Positions 18,838 through 57,400 of a stretch of 64,000 bases of DNA are shown in pieces. The DNA is taken from assembly GCF_009914755.1 (NCBI RefSeq), contig NC_060926.1. The stretch is one strand, 5' to 3'. The first letter of the stretch is position 1. The number at the start of each line of letters is the position of its first letter. The notes beneath the pieces were generated by a model, which had not been told where the DNA came from, ran no database searches, and was given only the letters and a program-made list of their open reading frames with translations. The translations under genes were made by a program, and so were the position numbers. Source of the stretch: the human T2T-CHM13v2.0 reference genome, Homo sapiens.

Positions 18838-18843
<6 letters not shown>

Positions 18844-18876
<33 letters not shown>
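18844..18876. repeat. (AT)n microsatellite
   Basis: About 16 perfect AT units. Confidence 0.97.
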
Positions 18877-20477: not shown

Positions 20478-20571
20478 ATATATATACACACACACACTAT
20501 ATATATATAATATATAAAAACTATATATATAAAATATATAAAAACTTTATATATATATATACATATATATA
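20478..20571. repeat. TA-rich compound microsatellite
   Basis: (TA)n, (CA)n and TATATAAAAAC units. Confidence 0.9.
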
Positions 20572-26090: not shown

Positions 26091-26519
26091 TGAGATCATA
26101 TTTAAAGAACTGTGATTGGAGGATATACCCACTAGGCACTGAGTACAGATAGGACTGAAAAGCTTCTGGGAATATTTAGTATTCTGGAAAATGAGGAGAA
26201 ACCAGCAAAGTAGACCAAGAGGGAGAGTGCTACGAAGTAGGGGAGAACAAAGCAACAGTGGGTTTCTGAATTTCAAAGGGAAAAAAGCAGGCTTCAGAAA
26301 TAACACAAGGCATTGTCTACTGATACCCAACACCATCCCATCCCCCTAATCTTTTCCCTATAATAAAACTGAAAACCTGGAAGGAGCATTTTGCAGAATC
26401 CTTTACCAGCAGAGATCTATTTTACTTTACATCTCTGAAAAACATTCACTCATTCATCAAAGATGAAATAGAAAGAATAGCTATTAGATTCCAAGAGCAG
26501 TGGCCACTTGGATGTACAA

Positions 26520-26836
26520 AAGTGGTCCCCAACCTTTTTGGCCCCAGGGACCAGTTTAGTGGAAGACAATTTTTCCATGGATGAAGGTGGTGGGGGAATG
26601 GATTAGATTCTCATAAGGAGCGTCCAACCTGGATCCCTTGCAGGTTCAGTTCACACTAGGGTTCATGCTCCTATGAGAATCTAATGCCACTGCTGATCTG
26701 ACAGGAGGTGGAGCTCAGGCGGTAATACTCACTGGCCAGCCGCTCACCTCCTGCTGTGTGGTTCGGTTCCTAAGAGCCCACAGATCAGTATGTGTGTGTA
26801 GGGGGGCGGGACGGGGGTCACAGTTGGGGAAACCTG
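26520..26836 (-). mobile_element. MER1B hAT-Charlie MITE
   Basis: GGTCCCCAACCTTTTTGG...GCTCCTATGAGAATCTAATGCC. 8-bp TSD ATGTACAA/GTGTACAA. Confidence 0.9.
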
Positions 26837-27129: not shown

Positions 27130-29250
27130 CAATTGCCGCTACTAAATCGGTAAGATAAAGACTGAGTATACACCATCAAATTTACAATGTTGATGCCATT
27201 GATGATCTCGTTGTGACCATTTTCATTGGAATACTATGGAGAAAACATTCTTTGCATGACTTCTATGGAAATGGGAGGATAAAAACCAATTTTGATGAGT
27301 TTTTTATAAAGCAGGGGTCTCCAAGCTGGGGGCAATGAACTGGTACTGGTCTGTGGCTTGTTAGGAACCGGGCTGCACAGCAGGAGATGAGTGGCTGGTG
27401 AGTGAGCATTACCACCTGAACTCTGCCTCCTGTCAGATCAGCAGTGGCATTAGATTCTCATAGAAGCTCAAACCCTATTGTGAACTGTGCATGCAAGGGA
27501 CCTAGGTTACACGCTTCTTATGAGACTCTGACTAATGTCTGATGATCTAAGGTGGAACAGTTTCCTCTCAAAACCATCCCCCCAACCACCCTCCCCCTTG
27601 TCCATGGAAAAATTGTCGTCCACGAAACAGTCCCTGGTGCCAAAAACACTGGGGACTGCTGCTGTACCGGGAAGAATATAATTGCTAATTGGAAGATAAT
27701 GTGGAGTTAGAGGAACATTTTTTGTAGCGGTTATTGTTATTTAAAAGAAACATTAGAACATGTAGGTAATAAGCCAATGTATATAATCCAATAGAGAGGA
27801 GAAACGTACTGATGTCAGAAGGAGAGGGACAGTTGTAAGAAAATACTTTAACAGGAGGGAGATGAGATTGTATGAACAAATGAAGAAGACAGTTCATGGA
27901 CAAATGAAGACTGAAGTCCAAGAACAGTGCATTCAACTTACAGGAGGACAGGTATAGTACATGAGCACCAACACAGCGGGTTTGGTAGATTTGGTAGTGG
28001 GGGCATGTTGAAACTCTTCTGATTGTTTCTGTTGTGTTAATGAAATGAGATGTAACTTCATCAGCTGAAGATGAGGAGAAAAAAAGGTGTTTAAGGCTTG
28101 AGAAAGAAGGAGGACGTGTAAAATAGTCATCTTGGGGAATGGTAGAGTGAATGGACATAAGAAATGTATCTGGATTGAAGAGTGATACTAAGGCTCTGTT
28201 CAGGATAGGAGTCATGAATTAAAGAGAAACATGTTGACGTGTTTGTGTGTTTTTCTCCCAAAATTTCAGCTGCTCTGATATAGAGTTAAAATAGACAGAT
28301 AAATGAACTTAACTGGGGATACCTTTAGCAGCTGAGTTTAAGAAAGGAAAAAAAGGGGCAAGGGATCAATGTGTTGGAAAACAAGTGGTGATAGTAATGG
28401 TTTATGGAACATAAGCTACATAACAAAGGGATTGAGGATATCAGGGGAGGAAGGGTCTAGTGAAAGAAGGCAAGGTCAACTCACAGAAACTCGTGATATG
28501 GCAAAAGAATTACTGGAGTTGGGATAATGGCAGAAAACACAGGGACTGTTGACTAGAGATGTACTGCTATATACGGAGGCTGTGAAAAAGTGACAGTTAT
28601 TGGAAATAGCAAGAGCATTGTTACGGTAGTGGGTATCTACGGTGATGAGTACTACACAGTTATTGAAGACATGTATGTTATGAGTTGATAAGCCAGAATA
28701 TTGGGTAGATCACTTTTGTGAATGTAGAAATCACTAAGGATCAGTAGTGATGTTACTAGTATGAAGTGCAAGAGAATGATCTGGCACTGAAATGTTCAAT
28801 AAATCAGATAACGATTATGAGGAAAGCAGATGATTGCCATTTGGAAATATAGTGTGACATTAGTGTGATAATTGTGTTTCAACATAATTGGAATTTCAGG
28901 GAGGCTAAAGGAGATAGCGCTTGGAAAAAACTATGAGGATCAAAAAGGAGATCAACCCTACCTCTAGGACTAGTTGTACCTGGAATGGTAAGAGAGAGAA
29001 AAAAAAATCATCCATTTGAGAGGGTTACAGAAGTATCAGGGTTCTCAGGAGAGAGCCTAGTTCAGAAGCACAGTTGAGGCTAGTGTGGGATTATAATGGA
29101 TGGGAGATTGAAACAGAACAGGACATATACAAAAGAGCTCAGATAATGAGAGATAATATGAGAATATTGGGTGTGATAAACAGTAACAGAAGATACACAC
29201 CTCACATAACAGCTGATGGTCCCAAGACAGATGATAATCATGGGGAGGCC
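27130..29250 (-). mobile_element. Degenerate L2 ORF2 remnant (boundaries approximate)
   Basis: ORF 27685-28215(-) contains SADEVTSHFINTTETIRR, which resembles the L2 ORF2 motif SADDxASYFxEKIEAIRRE. The plus strand is purine-rich, as expected of antisense L2. Confidence 0.6.
27312..27661 (+). mobile_element. MER1B hAT-Charlie MITE
   Basis: CAGGGGTCTCCAA...CTCCTGTCAGATCAGCAGTGGCATTAGATTCTCATA...GGGGACTGCTG. Confidence 0.9.
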
Positions 29251-42655: not shown

Positions 42656-45310
42656 AAGGCTTTGTTAAAGTCTGGACTTTGTCAGTAGAAGACAACCAGA
42701 GGTGTCAGAATCTATGATAAGTTAAAAGGTGATGACCAGGCTTTGTGAACAAGGAAATGGCTTTGCTCACATTGACACTCACATTGCAGTCACTGGAGAC
42801 ACTCAGTTTGGAATGCAGGAGACATGGCCAAGGCCAGAGAGGTTGATGGGGCCATATGAATCTGGGCAAGGACATAAACTAAGTTGCGTCAAAGAGCCAT
42901 CATTTGGTAAATCTCTCTAAGGCAGCATCTTAGTGACTTGAAAACTGGGCTCTTCACAGAGGCATGATGACTTGAAAACGCTAGAGAAGAACTAGAAGTT
43001 CCAGGACCTAATATATAATAAAGAAAGTAATTCACCAAAGACCTGAAGTAGCAACATAACAGGGAACAATATTCAATAAATGGAAAAGTTACAGAAATCT
43101 GCCCAAATTGAAAGTTAGGCCATTATTAAAAAGTCTTTGACACATCTACTTCATATGAAGAAAGCAAAAGGCACAAGTAGGATGAAATGATAGTTTTCTA
43201 GAGGCAAACTGGAAACATGAGAAGTTTATTGACAAATTACAAGGTTATTTTTTATTTTTTGAAAATAGTCTCTTTTTTGTCTTTTGAGGTTCTGGGTCTT
43301 TACAAGAAAGTAATTTCTTTTGTTGAATTGCCCTTTCCTAGGGACTAATATACATCTTATCCCTCAAAAAATATTTTCTTTTACTATGATCTTATTCCTG
43401 ATAGCAATAACTTACTGTTCAGACTCTCTCCTGAAATACATTTGGCAAGAAAGAAACATCAGTTTCCTTAGCCAAAAAGAAAAAAAGTAACAACATATCT
43501 AGTCTGTCAATCACCTTGTATAGTATGGCGTACACAGAAATATTATATTACATATAAGATTGCTTTGATAGACATTTCAGCACTTATTACATGTTTAGTG
43601 AAGTAGGTTGTAAAATTCTTGGGTATATTGTGAGCAGAGCAAGGGGGGTAAACAGGAGTAGACTTGGGTATAAAATAAAAGAAGAAAATGAAGCAGATTG
43701 TCAGCTTTAGGAAATAAATGGTGAACATACTGTTGTTTTAGACGTTTTAGTCAAACGACTAGTCCAATTAGTTTTTTTCTCTACTCTTTTTCTTTCCTGA
43801 ATATATGCCTACTTTTTATTAAAGTAATGCATTCTCATGATTTATACTAAAATAGCACCAATGAGCTTAAAATAAAAAGCAGAAAGCCCCTGTCTCCCAC
43901 TCCCATCTGCAAACCTACTTGTAAAAACAACTACTTTTATGTCTTCTGGTGAATGTCTTCTTGTGTCTAACTAGTATGCCTCTAAGACATTTATGCAAGT
44001 TCATTAATTTTGACAGTATCTACTGCTGCTATGATAGATGTTATAGTGCATGTGCACTAAAACCACCTCCATCTACATACCCAATTCCTAAGTTTCATAG
44101 TTATTTTAGTATTTTTAGTTTGTCTGTTTATTTATGTAACTTAAAATAATATACCCAATGTTTCTTGTTCCATTGATATTTGATCGTTTCTCTCAACTGC
44201 CATTTTCTGATTGCTACCGTCCCTCTACCCCAACTCTCTGCCTCACCTACACATCCTAACTTCTCTCTTCTATACCTTTATGTTTACATTGTCAAGACAT
44301 CTTGGTAGTGTTCCTCCAGATAATCCTCACTTACAGAATTTAGGGCCCTACAAAAAAAAATAAGCAACTTTACTAGAACTCTTTTTCTTTTTTTGTTCCC
44401 CAAGGTTCAGAAGCTTTAAAGTAGATTTTGTTACTTAACATAGCATAGTCTTAATACAGATGCCATTGTGTGAAATGTAAGCACAGGAATGGCTTTTGGC
44501 TACACGCTTTAGAAATGCCAATCAGTTTTTGGCTGTAGGAGAACCAGTTGTAAGCCTAATGCCTCTTTGACTACTGGTGGCTGGTTAGCATATAAGCACA
44601 TGGCTGTCTTCAATTATTTTAGGCTGCTTACACCAACCAATTAAGAAGAGCCCTCTCTTCAGGACAGCTTGATGTAACAAGACAAGTATTTGGTCTATTC
44701 TGCAGTGATTGGCACCTCTGATGGAATTCCTTCAAAGCTGTGAAATGGAACTCAGCTATTTGATAACTTATGGGTCTCTGGAAAAAACTCATTTCCTCTC
44801 TGCCATCAGTTTAAGTATTACTCTACCAGGAATAGTAAGAAACAACAAAGCTTAATGCCCCTCTTTGTTTGGGGATCCTCATTTTCTCTTCTCCGTTATG
44901 GCTTGCAAGTTAAGAGAGATAAAATTAAAGCTTGTTTTAGTTCTTATCCTACTCAGCGGGTCTGAGTCTCTGTAAAAGTTACATTCCAAGTTCCACCTTT
45001 GGTACTAGTAAATTAATCTGTATTTAGACTAAGATAGTAATATTTACATTCTGTCCTATAATATCGGTGAAATCATCTGAGGGTTACCTAAATGTTGATT
45101 ATAAAAGTTGAAAGACCAAAGACAGTATTTCTATTAATATGAGTATATAAATATTGTTCATCACAGATCCAACTGGAAGTCTGTGATTTCCACTCCTTCT
45201 CTATGTTCGCAATGTATAAACCCATCACAACTCAAACAAAAGTATTTTTAGCATTGAATTAGATAGAATCTCCTTTACTCCATTTCCTCAATTGCTCAAG
45301 TCATGCCACT

Positions 45311-45671
<361 letters not shown>

Positions 45672-45955
45672 TAAAATATTTCATAGCCTTTTTTGTTTAT
45701 TTGTTATGAAGAAATATAAGCCACTTATACTATACCTATAATATGTTTCAGCTTTGTATTCAGCCTATCTTCTAGTATTCTTTCTGAAGATACTCCTCTT
45801 AGCAACCGCCAATTTCCTTCTCTATGTAGAGTTGGTGTTATTATTGGGATCCTTAGTTATTCTTACCATTTCTTGTATACTCTGTCTTCCTATTTTTTTA
45901 ATCTGCATTTTCTGGAGTTCATGCACAAGAAATAGCTTCAGAAAAAGTTGTTTGT

Positions 45956-46260
45956 GGCCAGGCACCATGGCTCACACCTGTAATCTCTGCACTTTGGGAA
46001 GCCAAGGTGTGCAGATCACTTGAGGCCAGGATTTCTAGACTAGCCTGGACAACATGGTGAGACCCCATCTCTATTAAAAATACAAAGAATTAGCTGGGCA
46101 TAGTGGCACACAGCTATGGTCCTAGGTAATTGGGAGGCTGAGGCGGAAGGATTGCTTGAGCCTCGGGAGCAGAGGTTGCAGTGAGCAGAGATTGCACCAC
46201 TGCACTCTAGCCTGGGTGACAAAGTGAGTGAGACCCTGTCACAAAAAAAGAAAAAAAAAA
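45956..46260 (+). mobile_element. AluJ-type SINE
   Basis: Diverged Alu with GGATTGCTTGAGCC and GTGAGACCCC (J diagnostics). Confidence 0.93.
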
Positions 46261-47904
46261 TGTGTGTAAACAGGAAGGCCGACTGGGAGCTCTGTGTACT
46301 GTGTCAAGAGCACACAGAGCACCAGCCTTTCCCCTACTTCACTCCCAATGTTGAAATGAGAAAGCTTTATTATTGAGCATTGACATCCACCTAGATGGAA
46401 TAGGCATCCCCAGATACTTCCTTTACTTTCTCTAGAGAAGAAGAGTTCATTATTCCCGTGAAAGTAAATGCATTCCTGGCTGCTTCTCTTTTGAAAAGAG
46501 AGACAATTACAAGGTAGTAAATTTGGAAGGAGGGGTGATGTAAATCTTTTTCCTACCAACCTTCAATTGATGCCTCCTTTTTCAATTCCACTTCTTACTC
46601 TGGGTCTCTGTTATATGTGCTATCTCTGAGTTCAGGGCTCTGAGGTCTGGAGCCTGAGGGGAGATCAACTTCTGTAGCTACTCACTCCCTCCATGCATAA
46701 TCTAGGGTATTTATCATACTATTCTGTTTCCTCATTCTATCAATTTTTATTCCACTTACATATTTGAGATATTTGATACAATCTGTCATTACTGATATTT
46801 ATTGTTTTGTTACCATTTTTACTGTTCTCATTGTTTTTGATGATACTTTATTTATGAATTTATTATTACTTTCGTTCTCAAGAGGGAGAAAGGCTGACCA
46901 GTGCTCAGCTGTCTTAAACCTGAATTCCACCTATCCTACTAAAGCAACACAATCAGATTAGTTGTGAATTTTATTAGCTACTAGCTAAATTGATTGGTTA
47001 ATCAGTCAGTAATTGACCCATAAAGAATGAAGAGACAGAAAACAAGTTATTAAAATGAATAGGGAGAAATAAAGAATTTTTTCTAGTTAACAAAATATTT
47101 TTATTAATATCTAGTCAACATAGCCTCTCTGAATTTTCTATATTATTTTATTTAAAAATCTTTTGGGGAGGAATTTCTTCAGGTATATTTGTTCCTACCT
47201 GCTGTGGGCTCAATACCCAGCACTTTCAATCTGATCATAAGTTGTATGAATTTTTTTATACCTATTATAGTTAAGAACTAATTTTATAACTTTGATTCTC
47301 TATTAAAATTCTATGATTTCTCATTAATGTCAAAATATGTCCTTTTACACTTCAGGAAATGTCACTAATTTTAGGGGAAATTGATATGCAGTTACAGGAC
47401 AGTAAAAAGATACGTTATCTTCTGGGTTGGTTTGCATGTACAATTTCAATCACACTGGTTTCTGAGAGGCCAATCATTTGTAATTTAGAAGAGATTGTAG
47501 TGTTGCAGCCTTTTGCAGGCTCCATTTCTCTTACTTTTGAGAGTGCTTATCTACTTGATAAAAAGAATAAGAAGAAAAAGAAAAGAAAAACGTATTTTCT
47601 GTCGTGTTTCTTATATTCAAATGAGCAGATAATGCCGTTTGATTTTTTTTTTTCTTCTTTGGTGATGAAAGTCAGTCAAGGGTCTGGAAAAAGACTGTAT
47701 CTAAGAGAAAGTAGATTTTACTGTTTAAGAGCCCAGGACATAAGCTGTATTTTCCAAGCATCCAGCCAATGCAATCATAAGCAAATCTCCCTGGGGCTGC
47801 CAATTTAGTACTGTCTTATGTCTGGTGGCAATATCGTATGTTCAAAGACAAATGTGTCCCTGAAATTGGTCTGCAGTTTGGTTAGACATAAGGCTGGCAG
47901 ATAA

Positions 47905-48004
47905 CTTTCTATTTCTATTTCTTCTTCCTTTTCTTTCCTTCCTTCCTTTCTTCCTTCCTCCCTTCCTTTCTCTATTCTTCCTTTCTTGTTTCCTTTTTTC
48001 TTTT
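47905..48004. repeat. CT-rich (TTCC-like) low-complexity tract
   Basis: Pyrimidine run TTCTTCCTTTTCTTTCCTTCCTTCC... Confidence 0.85.
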
Positions 48005-49539
48005 ATCGGTGACAGGAAAATCATTTTGGACAAAACCCAGCTGTGGCCTGTATTTGATGTTGTGCTCAAGTTACGGGGGTTTGGTTACAAACTCTTTATC
48101 CCCTTATCATGTTCCCTGACTTATCTACCTCTGCCGTCAGTCCAAGTCATTACTATCTTAATTAATTGGGCTGGAGCTCCCTCCCTGCATCATTCCAGAG
48201 AAGAGAATTCAAGAAAAGAGGAGTAGAAGTAGATAAAATTGGTTACAAGTTCTTAGAGTCCAGTAGAGCTGAGTCTATTATTTGAGGTCCTCAAAAACAA
48301 AACAACAACAATAACAACAGAAAAAAAATACTTAGGAGATTTTAGTTCTTTTTGTTTTTTTCCTCTTCCCATAAAACTAAACCACAGAAGATGATTATAG
48401 TCATCAATAAACAGTTTCCCTCGAAACCTTTTTGAAAAATGAGATTGGGAAAAAAATAGTTTAAAATAGGAGGACAGGGGAAGTTAGGAAAGAAGAAGAT
48501 GTGGAGAATAAGGATTATGGGGATTATCCTGGATTATCTTCACTGCCACTACTTTATCTTTACCATTACCATTTTACCTCCCAGCCAAGATCAGAAGTGC
48601 TACAGAGGTATCTTTATAGATGTAGATTATAAAATTTATATTGTAATATATTATAATTAATCAGTATATGTATAATATATATTATATATATAATGTTTTT
48701 CTCTGTAACTAATAGGGTGGTAGATAAGGTGTTAGTTTAAACTACTAGGCATGTATAAAGACTATGAGAATGCAGAAAATAAAAAAGCTACTATTAATAT
48801 TAAATAAGAACTATATATGAAGACAAGAAACCCAGAAAAGAAAAGATGAGTAAAAAGGAGAAATAGAGAAACGAAACCCTCATAACAGATAAAGAGTTTG
48901 TAAGCTGAGACATGTAGGCTGTTAGGATTATATTTTCATTACAGTTATCTTGAATGGAGCTGTTTTATAGATCATTTTCACCTCCGAATTTTGAGGAGTT
49001 CCCCTACCAACTAATCTACTCAGCTCAGTAAAATTCTTAAGTTAATGGCCATTGATGGGAGTAAGAGGGAGAAAACTCATTTTTCACTCATCATCAGATT
49101 TAAGAAGCCAAATGCCTTCCCCATCGCCTTCTGTTTCTTTTTTTGTTATGTAAAAATCCAGAGAGGTAGAGAAGAAAAAATAAAACTTGTTTCTAAAAGC
49201 CACTGCCCTTCACCTTTCTCCTGAGTTCATCTCTAAATAATCTTGGAAAAAATTCCCAGTTTTCAAAAAATATCTGGGAAACCTTAATTAAGTCTCTAAA
49301 ATTCAAATCCAAAGTGAAGAGCAGCAGTATGCCTGTAAAACATTCAAATAAAGGCCTTAGAAAAAAAAAATCAAAATCTTCTGACACTATACATTTTTCA
49401 CTAAAGGTCTGAAGCAAAGACCAGTACACCTTTCATAGATGCCTAGGATTGCTTGCTGTTTGTTACAAGTAAAGGTAGCACTCACATCCTGATGTCAACT
49501 CAATGAAAGCTAATTTCACAAACCCCTATAGAAATATAA

Positions 49540-49802
<263 letters not shown>

Positions 49803-50193
49803 ACGAGGTCTATTTTTGCATGTATTGATATTCTATGTTTTAATATTTAATGATTTTTCTATTCTTTTTATTATTTCCCCATAGGGCAGACTTCTAGAGA
49901 AAATAACTCTTCTTAAGCATTTCACATTATTTCTACAGCTTTTCTACTCATCACTCTTCGTTAATTTCTGGGTAATCCTTGTCTTTAGATCAGTGACTCA
50001 CACCTCTTGCTTTCGGCTAAAAAGATTAGAGTAGTTCCGTGGTTTTGCTACCTGTGAACTGAATCATATTTTTGTATTTCACCCACGTTTCTGTTTATAT
50101 CTAAGCTCTGTGAAGCCTTATATCTACCGGATAACTACTTCACAAAATCTTTGCCAAAGGTATCTTATTAGAAACATTTAATCTGCCTTTTTT

Positions 50194-50666
50194 TATAGCT
50201 TCCTGTCATAATTTGTATATTTCTTATTATCTTGCAGATTAACACTAAGGTTTCTCTTGTCCCCTTTTTGTTTGGAATCAGACTAATTACCAGTCTCTGA
50301 AAACAAGCAGGAAAAACGGGTAGCATCTCAGCCAAACTGCAACTAAGAAACTGGAATGATACAATTAACGATGAGCTCATTTTTCTGTTTCTGAGCTCAT
50401 TGTTAGGGTTAAGGTAGGTTTAGGGTTAGGGTAAGAAACTGGAATGAAACAATTAACAATGAGTTCATTATTCTGTTTCTGAGCTCATTGTTAATTGTAT
50501 CATTCCAGTTTCTTACTTGGAGTTTGGCTGAGTTGTTAACGCATTTTTCCTGTTTGTCTTCAGAGTTTGGAAATTAGTCTGACTTCAAACAAAAGAGGGA
50601 CAGGAGAAATCTTAGTGTTAATCTGCAAGACAATAAGAAATATACAAATTATGACCAGAAGCTATA
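50194..50666. repeat. Long inverted repeat (arms 50194-50379 and 50480-50666)
   Basis: Hand alignment of the left arm against the reverse complement of the right arm gives 21 mismatches and 1 gap over 187 bp (~88%). It is mirrored in ORFs 50168(-) and 50567(+), which share NK.GT.E.LVLICK.IRNIQIMT.SY. Confidence 0.97.
50403..50431 (+). repeat. Short interstitial telomeric sequence (~5 units)
   Basis: TTAGGG TTAAGG TAGGT TTAGGG TTAGGG, flanked by 62-bp direct repeats (50344-50405 and 50432-50493). Confidence 0.85.
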
Positions 50667-50668
50667 TT

Positions 50669-50703
50669 AAAACAAAACAAAACAAAACAAAACAAAACAA
50701 AAC
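50669..50703. repeat. (AAAAC)7 microsatellite
   Basis: Direct reading. Confidence 0.95.
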
Positions 50704-50707
50704 CTTC

Positions 50708-51075
50708 ACTTTCCTGATCTTTCATGTAGCTACGGATGCCCATGCAACCCAGTTCCGACTAATTAGATGCAAGTAGATGTTCTCTGGATCAAGCATCTAG
50801 CAAAGATTGTCAGACCAGAGAGACTCAACCCTCCCTTTGACTCTTTGCCCTTCTTCTTCCTGCCAAGAGCAAAGATTCAATGCCTAGAGATTCATCAGCC
50901 GTTTTGTGATCAAGAAGATGAAATCCACAAACTAAGGAAGCCAGAACAGGAGCCGCTACACTAGCTCTGGGATTCTTATCTCTGGGATTTGTTACAGGAG
51001 AAAAACTAGAGCCCTTATTTATTTAAGCCATTGAATGTAGAATTTTCTATCACTTACAACACATTTCCTACTGTA
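50708..51075 (+). mobile_element. Old MLT1 (MaLR) LTR fragment
   Basis: GCCCATGCAACCCAGTTC...CAGCCGTTTTGTGATCAAG...TATTTAAGCCATTG...TTTTCTATCACTTACAAC. Confidence 0.6.
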
Positions 51076-53316
51076 GGAAACAAAATAATTATCAGCATTT
51101 CAAATGACATAACAAAAATCCTGCCTGAGTTTGTTTCAATGAGGGAGACATGTAAAAAAATTTTTTTTTTCTGAAGAACTTTAGTAACCAGAAACAAGTC
51201 AGAGTTTGCTGTTGTATAAAGCACCCAGCTTTCTTTGGAACATACAATTCCCTGAGTTGAAGCAACATTTCTGAACCTGTCAAAGCAATCTTTCTTTACC
51301 TTCAAGGCATTCAGTCTACCTAGTGTAGTAGATAATTAAAACACATTTTTATCCAGACTTACAGGGTGGATAAGCTCACCTTTTAGCTTTTTATACCTCT
51401 CTAGAGCCCTCTGATGTGGCAATCATATATCTGAATAGCCTTCTGGATAAGGCAGAGGAGCTCCTGGGAAAATGTCAAACCTTCTCAAAAGACGAATTAT
51501 TTCATTTTTAAGGACAAATAATGGGTGCTTTAAATCTCTGTAATTTCTTATTTCCAATTAATAGCAAATTACAGGGGCCATTTCTCTAAAATCTGACATT
51601 ATTCCTCAGTTTGACAGCTTTCTTCTTCTTAAACAATAATAGCTGTTTACTAATTTTTCTTCACTGGGAGAGAGGTTTTCTCCCACCAATCCCCCTCCAA
51701 CAAAAGAAATTCTAGTTCAGTCACACGTTATCACTGTGAGCACATTACTGTACCAAACATTTCAGACTATCTTTTTGTTATTTGTGTTAACTGACATGAC
51801 ATAACTAAAAACTTCTGTCATCCTGTTGGTACAAAAGTAAAGCTCTTTCAAATTTCTATGAAATTTCAACAATATAACTGTGTTATCTATACTGGTTTTT
51901 ACACTTTTTCTTTTTCCTTTTTTTTTTTTTTTTTGCTAGAAGTTGAACCTCCAAAAGAAATCTTACGTTTTTTAAAAAAATATGGATCCAGCCTCCATCT
52001 CACTAAGAATAACCTGTTTCACTCATATAAAATACAATCTTTAACAGGAAGTATGTCTTCGTGATCTCCTTACCTAGATAAGTCTCTCCAGAGTTTAAAC
52101 CGGGAGCTACTTTGAGAAGCTGACTGAGCTCCTGGATACTCTAAAAACAGTAGTTTTAGCAGACGTTGCACTTGGGGATAATTCAGACCTTGTTTGTGTT
52201 ATACATTTTAAAAGTATAAAGCTTACCAGTAATTGAATGCCATAATAGGACGTGAAGTAGAACTTGACTAAAGTTTACCTTTAATTCATTAGCATTTCTT
52301 TACAGTGAAGGTGAGTTGTTTAAATAAAAGTAAGGGGTTGTATGAAAATAAGATATTTTCAAATACTCTAATGCATTAGAAAGTAGGTATGTGCGATTAA
52401 CATGCTATTTACAAAACATGTCTTATCTAGTCACTAAAACAAGTTCCCTGAGGACCTGGTCAGGAAAGGATTTGTTTCATTCATTCAATCTATATCATTG
52501 AAACTAATGCATGTTATTCTATGTCACTTTTTTATTTCCACTATTTATAAGAGTAACCTCCTACATCTCCTCCACTCTACTTAACTCAGTTAATAGGGTT
52601 TACTAGTTTTACTAAACTGCTTGCAGTTTGGGATCATTAAATGAAACATTAGGTGGAAGCATACATTTATTTATTTACTTTTACCTGATATCTTTGGATG
52701 TGACTATTCATTCTTCCCTTCACTGGATTGTCACATTTGCCCCTGCTATTCCTACTCTTGTCTTGTTCCTCTAGCACCCCATTATAATTCCCTCTGTGCT
52801 CTGTTGCCTTCTTAGAACCATGTTTCTAACATTCCTTAAACCTACTAAAAATACTGCCCATATCTCAGGCTCTATAGAATACATTTCCAACTCCTTCAGT
52901 TAGAAATCTTGACCCTTCCCCATTTGATTCCAACCTACATTTACACTTCTGGTTTTCTGCATGGAACTTTTTTCTTTTTGCATTCTGCTCCAAGTCTTTA
53001 TTCACAATTTTCTCTTTCTTCTCAGCTTTCAAAATCCATGTTTTCTTTTTTAGATAAGAACACTTAGGACATCTTCCAATTAATTGCCCTGTACGTTCCT
53101 CCTCTTTGGAATCTTCTCTGCTCTCTTTGGATCAGAATTACAGCACTCACTTTTGAACTTCTATAACACTCATTGGGAAAAAATTAGTGTTATGAGTAGA
53201 AGTTTTATGATGAGACAGATTCAAGTCCTATCATCATTTAATGTGACCCTGGAAATTTTTTTTCTTCTCTAAAGTGGGAATAATTAAAACAACAACAACA
53301 ATAATACAGCATACAT

Positions 53317-54099
53317 TGAGACAGGAGAATTCCCTTGACCCTTTCATGAGGGAGAACTGGAGTGCACTAGCTCTAAGTCTAGCCAGCCACTTTGGTGCTG
53401 GCAGGGATGAACTTCACTCACTTGAACCCCCTGAGCTCAACCCCTTAAGGAAGGGAGCATGCAGGTGAGTGGGTACTGGGGCCGGGATCAGCACTTTTGG
53501 GCTGTGGCCCCATGGCAGCATCTAGTGGTATGTTAAAGTTAGTGCTCTTTTAGCTCTGCCATCCATGGATGGCTAAGTGTTAATAGGTCAGTGGAGGGTC
53601 AGGGTGACAGCCTTCTGCACCTGCCCCTTTGGCACCTGAGTTCTTATTCGACATCCAGGAAGAATAGGGTCCCATGAACAATTTGAAAGGTGATTAATGT
53701 GGAGGATTTTATTAAGCAGTGGAAGTGGCTGTCAGTGGAAGGGGAGCTGGAAAGGGGATGGTGTGGGAAGATCATCTTTCCCTAAAGCCCAGTCTTCTGT
53801 GGCTGGGCTCCTCTCTGAAATCATGCCAATTAAAGTTACGCCACATCTATCTGTAGTCTCCAACACTCAGTTGCGTCTTCTTCTCTTGATGTTCAGCTGC
53901 TTGTCTATTTGCTAGTTGAGGTCTGGGGTTTATATGGGCACACAATAAGGGGGTAAGGTGGCCAAAAAGGCAACATTTGGGTGGAAAAACAAGGATAACT
54001 GTTCTAATTTAGGGCCATGGTTTCCAGGCTCGAGGGTGGGGCCTTTGTCAGGGAAACTCCCTCTTTTACCCAGTATTTCCCTGCCTCCTGTCCATATCA
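53317..54099 (-). mobile_element. ERV1 solo LTR of the LTR1/LTR27/LTR28/MER52 group
   Basis: Minus-strand start TGATATGGACAGGAGGCAGGGAAATACTGGGTA. TG...CA termini. 4-bp TSD-like ACAT/ACAC. Confidence 0.82.
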
Positions 54100-54142
54100 A
54101 CACAATGTTCTTAGAACAATATGTGACATAAGGTAAACAATA

Positions 54143-54447
<305 letters not shown>

Positions 54448-57400
54448 CATAGATAAAAAATAAATGTTCACTATTATTATTTGCAGTTATTATTTTTACT
54501 TCTCTCTCATGATTAAGGCATATTTATCTGTGGATAGCTCATCTCTCCAACTAGATGTTTCATTAACTGAGGTCAATTCCTTTTTCTTAAAATTTTTTGT
54601 GTCTCCAGTAGCACCTAGGAGGTACTTTGCTTACAGGTGTTCAGTAGGTGTTTGCTGATGGATTGAGATTATATGTATAGTGCCAAGAGTCATCAACGAA
54701 AGGTAGCACATCAGAGCTGGGTAAACAATGTTTTCATAAGTTTCTAATGAAGTGAAATTTTCTGGTTCTCACTACAAAAATCTCTGCAAAATGAAAGGCA
54801 TCCATCCAAGGCAAGAAAATGATTATTTTTCAACCAAATGCTCCAAGCTAAAGTTAAGTAGTTTAAAATAGTCAATGAAATGGGAAAGTATATTTAGAAC
54901 TCATTTTATTTTACTATCTCATCTTGTCTATCAAAAGTATGTTTACCAAAAACTACTTAATATGCAGATCTTATATAATAAGATCCACACCATATTGCTG
55001 GATATATAAAATAGGCAAATAGCAATACTCTAAAATAGGCCATAAAAAAGAATACTAATAAATCAGAGCATTTCAAATTGTAATTTCTTTGTGCATGTAG
55101 TAAGTATCATCTTGGGTCCACAGGTCAGAATAAATAGTAATACTTTATGGTAGATAAATTAGGAAGAAATAAGAAACACTTTGGACAAGAAATGTTGCTA
55201 TGGAAACCTTAGTGTTCACAAGCTGCTTTTGAAGCATCTGCTGCTTTGCCAGACTTTTTGAGTTTAACTTTCTTTCAAGCTTTTTATTTAAGAAAAATAA
55301 AAAAGTCCTTTTACTACTAAGACTTACAATATGACAATGACAATATTCTCTCTATCCCTCTAAGATCCATGTTAATAACTTGTCTTATGAACTACTTCAT
55401 AGCATAAATACAACTTAATTAGGGTTGAAAAGAGGGTGGAGGTAAAGCAGTGCATTCAGGCTTGATTTGAATTTACTTCCACAGTGAGGTTATAGGAGTG
55501 GGGCTGGAGCCGGGACTCACTTTACTGATGCAATTTTAGTGCCAGGTCACAGAGCTGACAAAGATGGTTTTTTTAAACACAAGTTAAAAGCCATTTTAAA
55601 ATGTTTCATTTTTATTGACACAGAGCTGTCTGAAACCCCAAAGTTAGTGTTCCTGGAGACAGAAAAGCGGGTGTGTTTGCTGAATTCACAATAAATCAGA
55701 AGTGTCAGAACTTAGACTAGAAACTTTTGGCTCTGAACTTTGTAAATTTTATTTACTTTATTCCCCAAGCAACTTAAATGTAAAGCAGCCACCTACGTGT
55801 CTGGTAAGCTGAGACTTAATGAGGCTTAATCGACTTCTGTATTGCGAGTCTTATCTGCTTCCTTCAGTTTGTGCCTTTGCTCCTCTCACTCTCTGCCCAC
55901 ACACTCAGTGGCAATTGTCTGTTAGGAATGATTTTTCTGTCACTTGGGTCACCATGGTTGAGCTTCAAGATAGACAACTTGGCCAGATTCAGAGGAAGTA
56001 GTCACTGTTTGAACAGGATTCCTTGATGAACAACCTGCCGGATTGTAGATGAGACCTTTGACTTGTTTGTATCTGGTGCTTGCCATGGTCTCCTAGAATT
56101 ATTGTTTAAGCCACCATGCTCCCTGTTTATCCTTCCCCAGTGGCTGAAAAATAGAACCCTAGTGAATATAAATGGGCAACAACAACTACAGGGACTTTCA
56201 ACGGAAACAATTTTTCTTTAGAATGAATCATTTCCTATTTATAACAATTTGTAAATACAAAGGGCTTTGTATTCATTGAGATGTTGTTATTATCTGTGAG
56301 TATATTACATAAGGGTATAAGGGGCTCCCATGCCATTTTTAGTAATAGATCCCAAATTTGAATGTAACAAAGAGCAATAGCTTGATGCCTCTCTATACTT
56401 ACCAAGAGGAAACAAAATGAAAATGAGAACATAAAAGCCTGCATCTTTTTATTGGATTCTTAGCCATAACTGACTCTAAAGTCTTACTTCAAATCTTCTA
56501 AAACATGCCTCTTAAAAACTCCCCTGAGAAAATGCTCTGACTTTCTTTGCACTAATGAACAGCTCATCTGTTTCTATAAAACAAAATAGGAGTTATCCAA
56601 TAAATTGAATTTAATACATCTGTAGTGATGGATTGCCATATTGCCAAGTTTTATGGATTATCATTCACTTTAAAGAACTGCACTTGAATATTTTGCTGCA
56701 CATATTGGTTCATTTCATCCCTAAGAAGTTTCACATCATTTCTTTGCCTGACAATGATACCTTAGTTGGTATTTCTATTAGAAATTGGATGCATCATTTA
56801 GATCTACAATGCTTTTTCTAAAAATCTAATTGGCTCTAAATGTAAACTCACTTTTATTGTTTAGAATGAAGGGACAGTTCATAATGTTCTAGCAGAACTG
56901 CCTCAAGGAAAGGCTAAGTTTAGAGAATTAGTCATCTGAGGATTTTTTAGTTCCTACTAGTTGATATGCCTTCAAGTTAGTTAGCATCTACCATAGGTAA
57001 AGAATGATGCATACTTTCAGATATAGAATTGCAAGTTGGGGACAAATGATGAAAACCACTTAAATAGATGATACTAGTCCACATTTTTATATTGAACATA
57101 ACAATCAGCCACTGCCTACTTTTTCTTACTAAATGTGTAAAACTAACAGGTTCTATTTGATGGTTTGTCTTGCTTTCCTCTTTCTAGATCACCTCAAGAT
57201 ATGTTCATGGTCTCTGGTTCTGTTTTCTCAGTTTGCATTCAGTTGTTATTTAAATGCTAGGTGTTAACACCTTACAGGATGGTAACACCTTACACTTCTC
57301 TGCCACTTAATTTCAGTGAGAAAGATTTTATCTGGATCTGTTTCTACCATGTGAATTTACCCACTGTCACTCCTAATTCACTTAAGATCATTTAATTGAT

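What the first reader, a model, noticed from the sequence alone, without database searches (positions are those of the whole stretch)
50194..50666. ~470-bp palindrome of unrecognised sequence with an originally 12-nt spacer
Seen: arms of 186/187 bp at ~88% identity. Removing the central duplication and the telomeric insert leaves arm-TTATTCTGTTTC-arm, a near-perfect fold-back. The arms match no Alu, L1, LTR or MITE that I recognise. They end in TA on both sides, and the right end abuts (AAAAC)7 and a 5'-truncated MLT1. Established: long, short-spacer palindromes are unstable and rare outside MITEs and amplicons. Inference: this is either a unique fold-back/template-switch inverted duplication or an unannotated palindromic MITE. 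The 100-bp spacer created by the repair event may be what stabilised it.
Basis: partly seen in the sequence, partly recalled or inferred. Interest (0 to 1): 0.7.

Follow-up and report, generated by a model that had tools for sequence, protein, structure and literature searches.

The report
Palindrome patched with telomere repeats
A 470-letter stretch of human chromosome 2 is a mirror-image repeat, found nowhere else by our genome searches, with a short run of telomere-like sequence and a duplicated block at its centre; it likely arose from a copying error tens of millions of years ago and likely broke and was patched twice at its tip, so it is probably a neutral fossil of DNA repair and not a new mobile element.

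Summary
Confirmed: arms 50194-50379 and 50480-50666 match at 165 of 187 columns; a 62-bp direct duplication (58 of 62) flanks a 26-nt degenerate telomeric insert at the centre.

Genome searches found the arms only here, while controls at about 85% identity gave roughly 3,000 candidates. The search is blind to very old families. There is no target-site duplication; the terminal TA is self-complementary and proves nothing. An old LTR is cut off at the right arm's end and its missing part is not on the left, so the right arm is likely the new copy: a local fold-back, not a MITE.

New here: both arm tips are self-complementary, and the centre reads as a 10-nt direct repeat around a 10-nt filler. 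The 12-nt spacer is therefore likely itself a repair scar of a spacer-free palindrome. A second break near the tip was likely healed by telomerase (4 nt in register). Each step is a known process; I did not find the combination in print. No orthologues or repeat library were available. Probably neutral.

The parts
50194..50379 (+). Left arm, 186 nt, 36% GC; likely the original copy. Preceded by a T-tract (50188-50193) that ungapped extension adds to the arm
   Evidence: polarity inferred
50371..50380 (.). Self-complementary 10-mer at the inner tip of the left arm; likely the original centre of symmetry
   Evidence: 115 such 10-mers in 64,000 positions (0.18%)
50380..50391 (+). 12-nt spacer, copy 1; also readable as the last 2 nt of a 10-nt direct repeat (50372-50381 / 50392-50401) plus a 10-nt filler (50382-50391)
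50344..50405 (+). 62-bp duplication, copy 1 (36 nt of left arm, spacer, 14 nt of right arm); its last 4 nt are in register with the telomeric repeat
50406..50431 (+). 26-nt degenerate telomeric insert, G-rich strand on +
   Evidence: 31 of 35 columns match the telomeric hexamer array; the only 46-nt tile in the window reaching 75% of that score
50432..50493 (+). 62-bp duplication, copy 2 (58 of 62 identical to copy 1), holding spacer copy 2 (50468-50479)
50431..50516 (.). Residual short-loop hairpin: 37-nt arms, 95% complementary, 12-nt loop, -33 kcal/mol as DNA
50480..50666 (-). Right arm, 187 nt, inverted copy of the left arm; likely the derived copy
50669..50703 (+). (AAAAC)7 microsatellite at the junction of right arm and LTR remnant; likely grown from an A-tract at the junction
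   Evidence: the five LTR relatives show an A-tract at or near the matching place
50699..51070 (+). Old LTR remnant (MLT1-like by recall) lacking about 100 nt or more of its 5' part; right end approximate

Best explanation
This is a 186-bp inverted duplication found at one locus, likely made when a replication or repair polymerase folded back and copied the left arm in reverse, and likely broken and patched twice at its tip afterwards. Step 1 (inferred): a 3' end folded on a short self-complementary site, copied about 186 nt backwards, and rejoined at an A-tract inside an old LTR, deleting the LTR's 5' part; the product would have had no spacer. Step 2 (inferred): a break at the centre was repaired with an 8-10 nt duplication of the centre and a 10-12 nt filler, giving today's 12-nt spacer. 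Step 3 (structure shown, enzyme inferred): a second break left a 3' end 14 nt into the right arm; about four telomeric repeats were added, likely by telomerase, and the end rejoined 36 nt back in the left arm, duplicating 62 bp. The long arms ended 100 bp apart and have since drifted to 12% divergence. No function is needed. The core claim (local duplication, not a mobile element) is about 0.8; the full three-step order is the confidence given.
For: Single locus: both arms give 1 candidate and 3 matches, all here; left flank plus outer arm the same; a 26-nt motif shared by both arms has 3 matches within 3 mismatches, all here. Controls: 3,073 candidates for a 186-nt repeat at 84-88% and 2,879 at 82-85%. 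Arms that began identical and are now 88% alike imply that same-age sister copies would be about as alike and would be found. No flanking direct repeat over 5 nt. The LTR relatives share about 100 nt further upstream with each other (pooled scores 465-1542), which neither the left flank (-590 to -876; null mean -782, SD 334) nor the right arm matches (same result). The arm tips are self-complementary (0.18% of positions), as any duplication of a perfect palindrome's centre must make them; 37 of the first 40 positions pair outward from that centre. The second duplication spans the centre. Four nucleotides are in register with the insert, against at most 0.39% expected by chance in PMC2246262 Table 4. 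In the inner 36 nt no difference is shared by the two left-derived copies against the right arm, so the inner stem looks perfect when it broke. Substitutions run 2 transitions to 1 transversion, as for neutral drift.
Against: No orthologue was seen, so the pre-duplication state, the polarity and the order of events are inferred from one genome. The DNA search missed all relatives of the old LTR, so an ancient origin of the arm sequence is not excluded. The LTR test rests on 4-5 copies picked by score thresholds I set after seeing the scores; a first scan pointed at 49160-49220, which then ranked 9 of 3,196 tiles and vanished with another matrix. The self-complementary tip was noticed after the fact. 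The filler's likeness to the nearby arm is not significant (143 of 2,535 tiles score as well). The 62-bp duplication is asymmetric (36 versus 14 nt), which a clean cruciform cut does not give without trimming. Arm and duplication divergences (21 of 186, 4 of 62) do not differ significantly (p = 0.34), so steps 1 and 3 cannot be separated in time. Differences cluster in the middle of the arms (18 of 22 in 95 of 187 columns, p = 0.018, window chosen after the fact), which plain drift does not predict.
Confidence: 0.52

Rival explanations
1. Same local fold-back, but the 12-nt loop is original: the 3' end paired across a 12-nt loop, and only one later break, the telomeric one, occurred.
For: Needs one event fewer. 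Yeast fold-backs are primed by 5-9 bp inverted repeats with 3-12 bp spacers (review PMC7999016, passage). The filler's source is not shown.
Against: Leaves the self-complementary tips and the 10-nt direct repeat as a coincidence of about 0.2% per position.
Confidence: 0.2
2. An old or very low-copy palindromic DNA transposon (MITE) inserted into the LTR at a TA, with the LTR's 5' part lost by a later or adjacent deletion; the centre then broke as described.
For: Size and whole-length symmetry are MITE-like. The outer 56 nt are more alike (3 differences) than the middle. The DNA search cannot see very old families. A faint likeness of the left flank to the LTR 5' part can be seen by eye in the alignments.
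Against: No second copy; a family at 15% from the shared motif would match 44% of the time per arm, at 25% 8%. No target-site duplication. The left-flank likeness does not exceed the null (ranks 1,091-2,290 among 3-nt-step tiles of 45000-56000).
Confidence: 0.13
3. One complex repair event made everything: a break, telomerase extension and several template switches produced the arms, the filler and the duplication together.
For: Arm and duplication ages are not distinguishable (p = 0.34); no arm difference predates the duplication in the inner 36 nt; telomere addition follows hairpin-capped breaks in yeast (PMC10164571).
Against: The duplicated block already holds both arm tips and the spacer, so the palindrome had to exist, at least briefly, before it was copied.
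Confidence: 0.1
4. The palindrome is older than it looks and is kept alike by arm-to-arm conversion or by selection on a hairpin RNA or protein-binding role.
For: Uneven divergence along the arms. The inner hairpin (37-bp stem, 12-nt loop) is close to the preferred microRNA precursor shape of a 35-bp stem and a loop of 10 nt or more (PMC10710096).
Against: No gene or functional element is annotated in the window (hub table). All 25 Rfam matches in 49400-51600 are below gathering score. The substitution pattern looks neutral.
Confidence: 0.05

Closest known systems
Template-switch inverted repeats, four-point model (PMC5453318; PMC10710096; passages read)
   Same: A reverse-complement copy of adjacent sequence replaces what was there, creating a new inverted repeat at one locus.
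   Different: Those studies deal with short events shown by comparing species; here the copied piece is 186 nt and no ancestral state was seen.
Centre-break revision of palindromes in mouse (primary papers not held; read through review PMC8701086, section 3)
   Same: A perfect palindrome is rearranged at its centre, and the loss of symmetry stabilises it.
   Different: 93% of 118 rearrangements were deletions and spacer inclusion was uncommon; here both inferred revisions are duplications with inserts, one telomeric, at a natural locus.
Short interstitial telomeric sequences inserted at breaks (PMC2246262; passages, supplement S6 whole, S5 searched)
   Same: A few telomeric units, a duplicated target (4 of 25 primate loci), nucleotides in register.
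   Different: The duplication is 62 bp against 15-43 in S6, and the target is a palindrome tip; 'palindrom' occurs 0 times in that paper's main text. This locus is not among its chromosome 2 rows.
Palindromic AT-rich repeats, PATRR11/17/22 (PMC1851657; passages)
   Same: Similar total size (about 190-600 bp); central asymmetry lowers cruciform extrusion.
   Different: PATRRs are near-perfect and translocation-prone; these arms are 34-36% GC, 12% diverged and 100 bp apart.
Human palindromic MITEs such as Made1 (PMC1784062; search listing only)
   Same: Short element that folds back on itself.
   Different: Dispersed copies and a target-site duplication are missing here.

Membership tests
MITE / non-autonomous DNA transposon | Terminal inverted repeats | tested here: met
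   Whole arms are inverted repeats; not specific to transposons
MITE / non-autonomous DNA transposon | Target-site duplication | tested here: not met
   No direct repeat over 5 nt between 50150-50200 and 50660-50730; a 2-nt TA cannot be told from the palindrome's own symmetry
MITE / non-autonomous DNA transposon | Dispersed copies at about 82% identity or more | tested here: not met
   against controls 17, 49
MITE / non-autonomous DNA transposon | Dispersed copies of a very old family | tested here: inconclusive
   DNA search blind to old repeats; profile search covered 264 kb only; motif search covers the inner arm only
MITE / non-autonomous DNA transposon | Match to a Dfam or Repbase family | not testable with these tools
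   No repeat library held
Template-switch / fold-back inverted duplication | Two adjacent inverted copies at one locus only | tested here: met
Template-switch / fold-back inverted duplication | New copy replaces pre-existing sequence at its outer junction | tested here: met
   LTR remnant begins at the junction and lacks its 5' part; 4-5 relatives
Template-switch / fold-back inverted duplication | Short inverted homology at the switch point | tested here: inconclusive
   Self-complementary 10-mer at the tip, but the ancestral sequence is unknown
Template-switch / fold-back inverted duplication | Outgroup holds one arm only | not testable with these tools
   No related genome held (header)
Short interstitial telomeric sequence | Four or more hexamer units with under one mismatch per unit | tested here: met
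   31 of 35 columns match, 3 mismatches and 1 gap; criterion from PMC2246262
Short interstitial telomeric sequence | Inserted into pre-existing sequence, with break-site modification and bases in register | tested here: met
   62-bp duplication, 4 nt in register
Short interstitial telomeric sequence | Empty site in an outgroup | not testable with these tools
   No related genome held
PATRR | Near-perfect arms with a symmetric centre | tested here: not met
   88% identity, 100-bp centre
microRNA precursor | Stem near 35 bp, loop of 10 nt or more | tested here: met
   50431-50516
microRNA precursor | Known family | tested here: not met
   All Rfam matches below gathering score
microRNA precursor | Transcription and precise small-RNA products | not testable with these tools
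   No expression data

The most novel reading that the evidence does not exclude
The locus is a germline fossil of a newborn perfect palindrome that extruded a cruciform, was cut and patched, was cut again, and was healed by telomerase and rejoined. If short interstitial telomeres with long target duplications prove enriched at palindrome tips across primate genomes, self-inflicted cruciform breaks would be a general source of interstitial telomeres, and telomerase a route by which germline palindromes survive.
Probability: 0.25. Interest if true: 0.6.

Novelty: new variant of a known kind. Interest (0 to 1): 0.33.

Why it matters
Breakage at the centre of palindromes is known from transgenes, yeast and PATRR translocations, and telomeric insertions at breaks are known from primate comparisons, but what caused those breaks is mostly unknown. 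Here a likely cause, the palindrome, sits around the scar, and two nested repairs can be read from one sequence. It gives a natural test case datable by primate orthologues, and a cheap genome-wide question: do short interstitial telomeres sit at hairpin tips more often than chance? It also explains how a 186-bp palindrome could survive. No function or disease link is shown. The site lies about 78 kb from NRXN1 (hub table), a region where inverted self-chains were reported as over-represented near deletion breakpoints (review PMC4330246); whether this one is involved was not tested.

Tried and rejected
1. Palindrome inserted into the LTR (my own idea, from a by-eye likeness of the left flank): the left flank scores at null level against the relatives' shared upstream part. 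A peak at 49160-49220 did not hold window-wide. One search failed because my threshold left one relative.
2. TA as target-site duplication: rejected.
3. Weak arm-like hit at L021:9174-9268 (E = 0.021): 2 of 32 reversed or shuffled arms score as high, and there is no matching palindrome there.
4. Coding origin: longest stop-free stretches in six frames are 20-73 codons; no protein search was run.
5. Known RNA family: none at gathering score.
6. Filler templated from the nearby arm: 5.6% of tiles do as well; left open.
7. Assembly artefact: 12% arm and 6% duplication divergence with a neutral substitution pattern argue against it; no reads were seen.
9. Three primary papers (Akgun 1997, Cunningham 2003, Chen 2013) are not held and are cited through reviews. 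The supplement of PMC5398296, which may list and date this inverted duplicate, could not be read.

Full report
Observation. The arms 50194-50379 and 50480-50666 align at 165 of 187 columns, with 14 transitions, 7 transversions and one gap. The region folds at -162.8 kcal/mol as DNA, z = -26.5, with 0 of 100 shuffles as good. The 100 nt between the arms hold a 62-bp direct duplication (50344-50405 and 50432-50493, 58 of 62 identical) around a 26-nt insert that matches the telomeric hexamer array at 31 of 35 columns and is the only such tile in the window. (AAAAC)7 follows the right arm. In the window plus the next 200 kb, the other inverted pairs within 1.5 kb are Alu pairs, one DNA-transposon pair, LTR copies, AT-rich simple repeats and one unexamined 72% pair 1.4 kb apart; this is the only long, closely spaced one made of single-copy sequence (family names recalled).

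Copy number. Each arm, searched against the whole genome, gave one candidate and three matches, all at this locus; left flank plus outer arm gave two matches, both here. Two controls show that the search sees primate-age families: 3,073 candidates for a 186-nt repeat from this window, the 40 scored at 84-88% apart from itself, and 2,879 for an LTR, at 82-85% over its first 235 nt. A third control shows its limit: the old LTR next to the palindrome found only itself, although relatives exist. A 26-nt motif shared by both arms has 3 matches within 3 mismatches genome-wide, all here, and 0 for the reversed control. A profile of the two arms over 264 kb found one weak outside hit (E = 0.021) that 2 of 32 null queries equal. 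If the arms began identical and drifted to 88%, sister copies of the same age would be about 88% alike and would have been found. A MITE therefore needs either very few copies or great age plus arm-to-arm conversion. There is also no target-site duplication: no direct repeat over 5 nt flanks the element, and the terminal TA is self-complementary.

Which arm is new. A 16-nt motif from the LTR remnant has 72 matches within one mismatch, against 14 for the reversed control. I examined all 71 non-self matches; 5 are relatives by downstream similarity (9 by a looser score, of which 4 share upstream sequence). Thresholds were set after seeing the scores. The window's similarity to them starts at 50698-50699 in four and 50708 in one. 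The relatives share about 100 nt further upstream with each other (pooled 465-1542), but the left flank scores -590 to -876 and the end of the right arm lower still, against a null of -782 +/- 334 (one search agrees: true homologues 1,697-2,351, best tile in the window 1,351, left flank 773-916). So my own idea that the palindrome was inserted into the LTR failed; a first peak at 49160-49220 ranked 9 of 3,196 tiles and disappeared. The LTR is cut where the right arm and microsatellite end. The simplest reading, an inference, is that the right arm is the new copy and replaced the LTR's 5' part, as in the four-point template-switch model (PMC5453318, passages).

The centre. The inner tip of the left arm is a self-complementary 10-mer (50371-50380); 115 of 64,000 positions start one. 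The centre can be read as a 10-nt direct repeat around a 10-nt filler, and without one such 20-nt unit 37 of the first 40 positions pair outward from a spacer-free centre. Duplicating the middle of a perfect palindrome must give self-complementary tips; a fold-back across a 12-nt loop need not. I therefore read the 12-nt spacer as a first repair scar, with the caution that this was noticed after the fact and that the filler's source is not shown (143 of 2,535 tiles match it as well). The second event duplicated 36 nt of left arm, the spacer and 14 nt of right arm. Its 3' end has 4 nt in register with the telomeric insert, the telomerase signature of PMC2246262 (Table 4 expects at most 0.39% by chance; passages). 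Insertions with target duplication were 4 of 25 primate loci there, with duplications of 15-43 nt in supplement S6; this locus is not among its chromosome 2 rows. In the inner 36 nt all differences among the three copies are private, so the stem looks perfect when it broke. The asymmetry (36 against 14) does not fit a clean diagonal cruciform cut without trimming; a stalled fork extended by telomerase and restarted upstream fits equally.

Age and stability. Arm distance is 0.124 (K2P; 95% interval of the raw fraction 7-17%), duplication distance 6.5% (2-16%); they do not differ significantly (p = 0.34). With recalled primate neutral rates this is roughly 30-50 million years, so the structure is predicted in apes and Old World monkeys, perhaps all simians. 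Differences cluster mid-arm (18 of 22 in 95 columns, p = 0.018 with a window chosen afterwards); this is unexplained and could mean patchy conversion. Literature supports stabilisation by spacer and divergence: 12 to 100 bp lowered recombination 300-fold in yeast, and telomere addition follows hairpin-capped breaks (PMC10164571, passages); central asymmetry stabilised a mouse palindrome 25-fold (review PMC8701086, section read); a 9-nt spacer with four mismatches blocked extrusion of a PATRR (PMC1851657, passages). The repair left a 37-bp stem with a 12-nt loop, so protection is partial. That stem has microRNA-precursor proportions (PMC10710096, passages), but no gene is annotated and all 25 Rfam matches are below gathering score.

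Novelty. Inverted duplicates are abundant in the human genome (PMC5398296, first part and passages; supplement unreadable), and each step here is a known process. I did not find a telomeric insertion at a natural palindrome tip in print: searches of an open-access library returned nothing describing one in their listings, and 'palindrom' is absent from the main text of PMC2246262. Most subscription papers are not covered. Other papers seen: PMC3907307 and PMC7999016 (passages), PMC4330246 (passages), PMC1784062 (listing only).

Verdict. A real, single-locus palindrome, most likely a local fold-back with two nested repairs at its tip, the second telomeric. Shown: anatomy, single copy down to about 82% identity, LTR truncation, bases in register. 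Inferred: polarity, spacer-free origin, telomerase, age, order. New variant of a known kind; probably neutral; interest 0.33.

Noticed in passing
L011:5557-6497 (G000:C2:49875557-49876497): Two copies of one LTR family lie tail to tail, 128 nt apart, 314 matches to 48 mismatches (87%). Over the first 235 nt they are more alike (88%) than any other scored copy genome-wide (85% or less; 40 of 2,879 candidates scored), hinting at a second local inverted duplication or conversion 39 kb from the finding. A third related copy lies about 1.1 kb upstream.
   Followed up: partly
window 26514-26790 and 27344-27667: Two inverted copies of a DNA transposon (MER1-like by recall), 83% alike, 554 nt apart; used as a positive control.
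   Followed up: yes
window 49572-49800: Young-looking, 5'-truncated Alu on the minus strand with an apparent target duplication, about 390 nt left of the palindrome (subfamily not determined).
   Followed up: no
window 50403-50411 and 50420-50428: Two perfect 9-nt telomeric half-sites survive in the insert; from recall these are what TRF1/TRF2 dimers bind, so the site might recruit them. Untested.
   Followed up: no
window 50250-50343 against 50516-50610: 18 of the 22 arm differences fall in the middle half of the arms (p = 0.018); unexplained.
   Followed up: partly
window 18843-18876 and 20498-20567: A perfect 34-nt palindrome (not inspected) and an AT-rich self-complementary simple repeat.
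   Followed up: no
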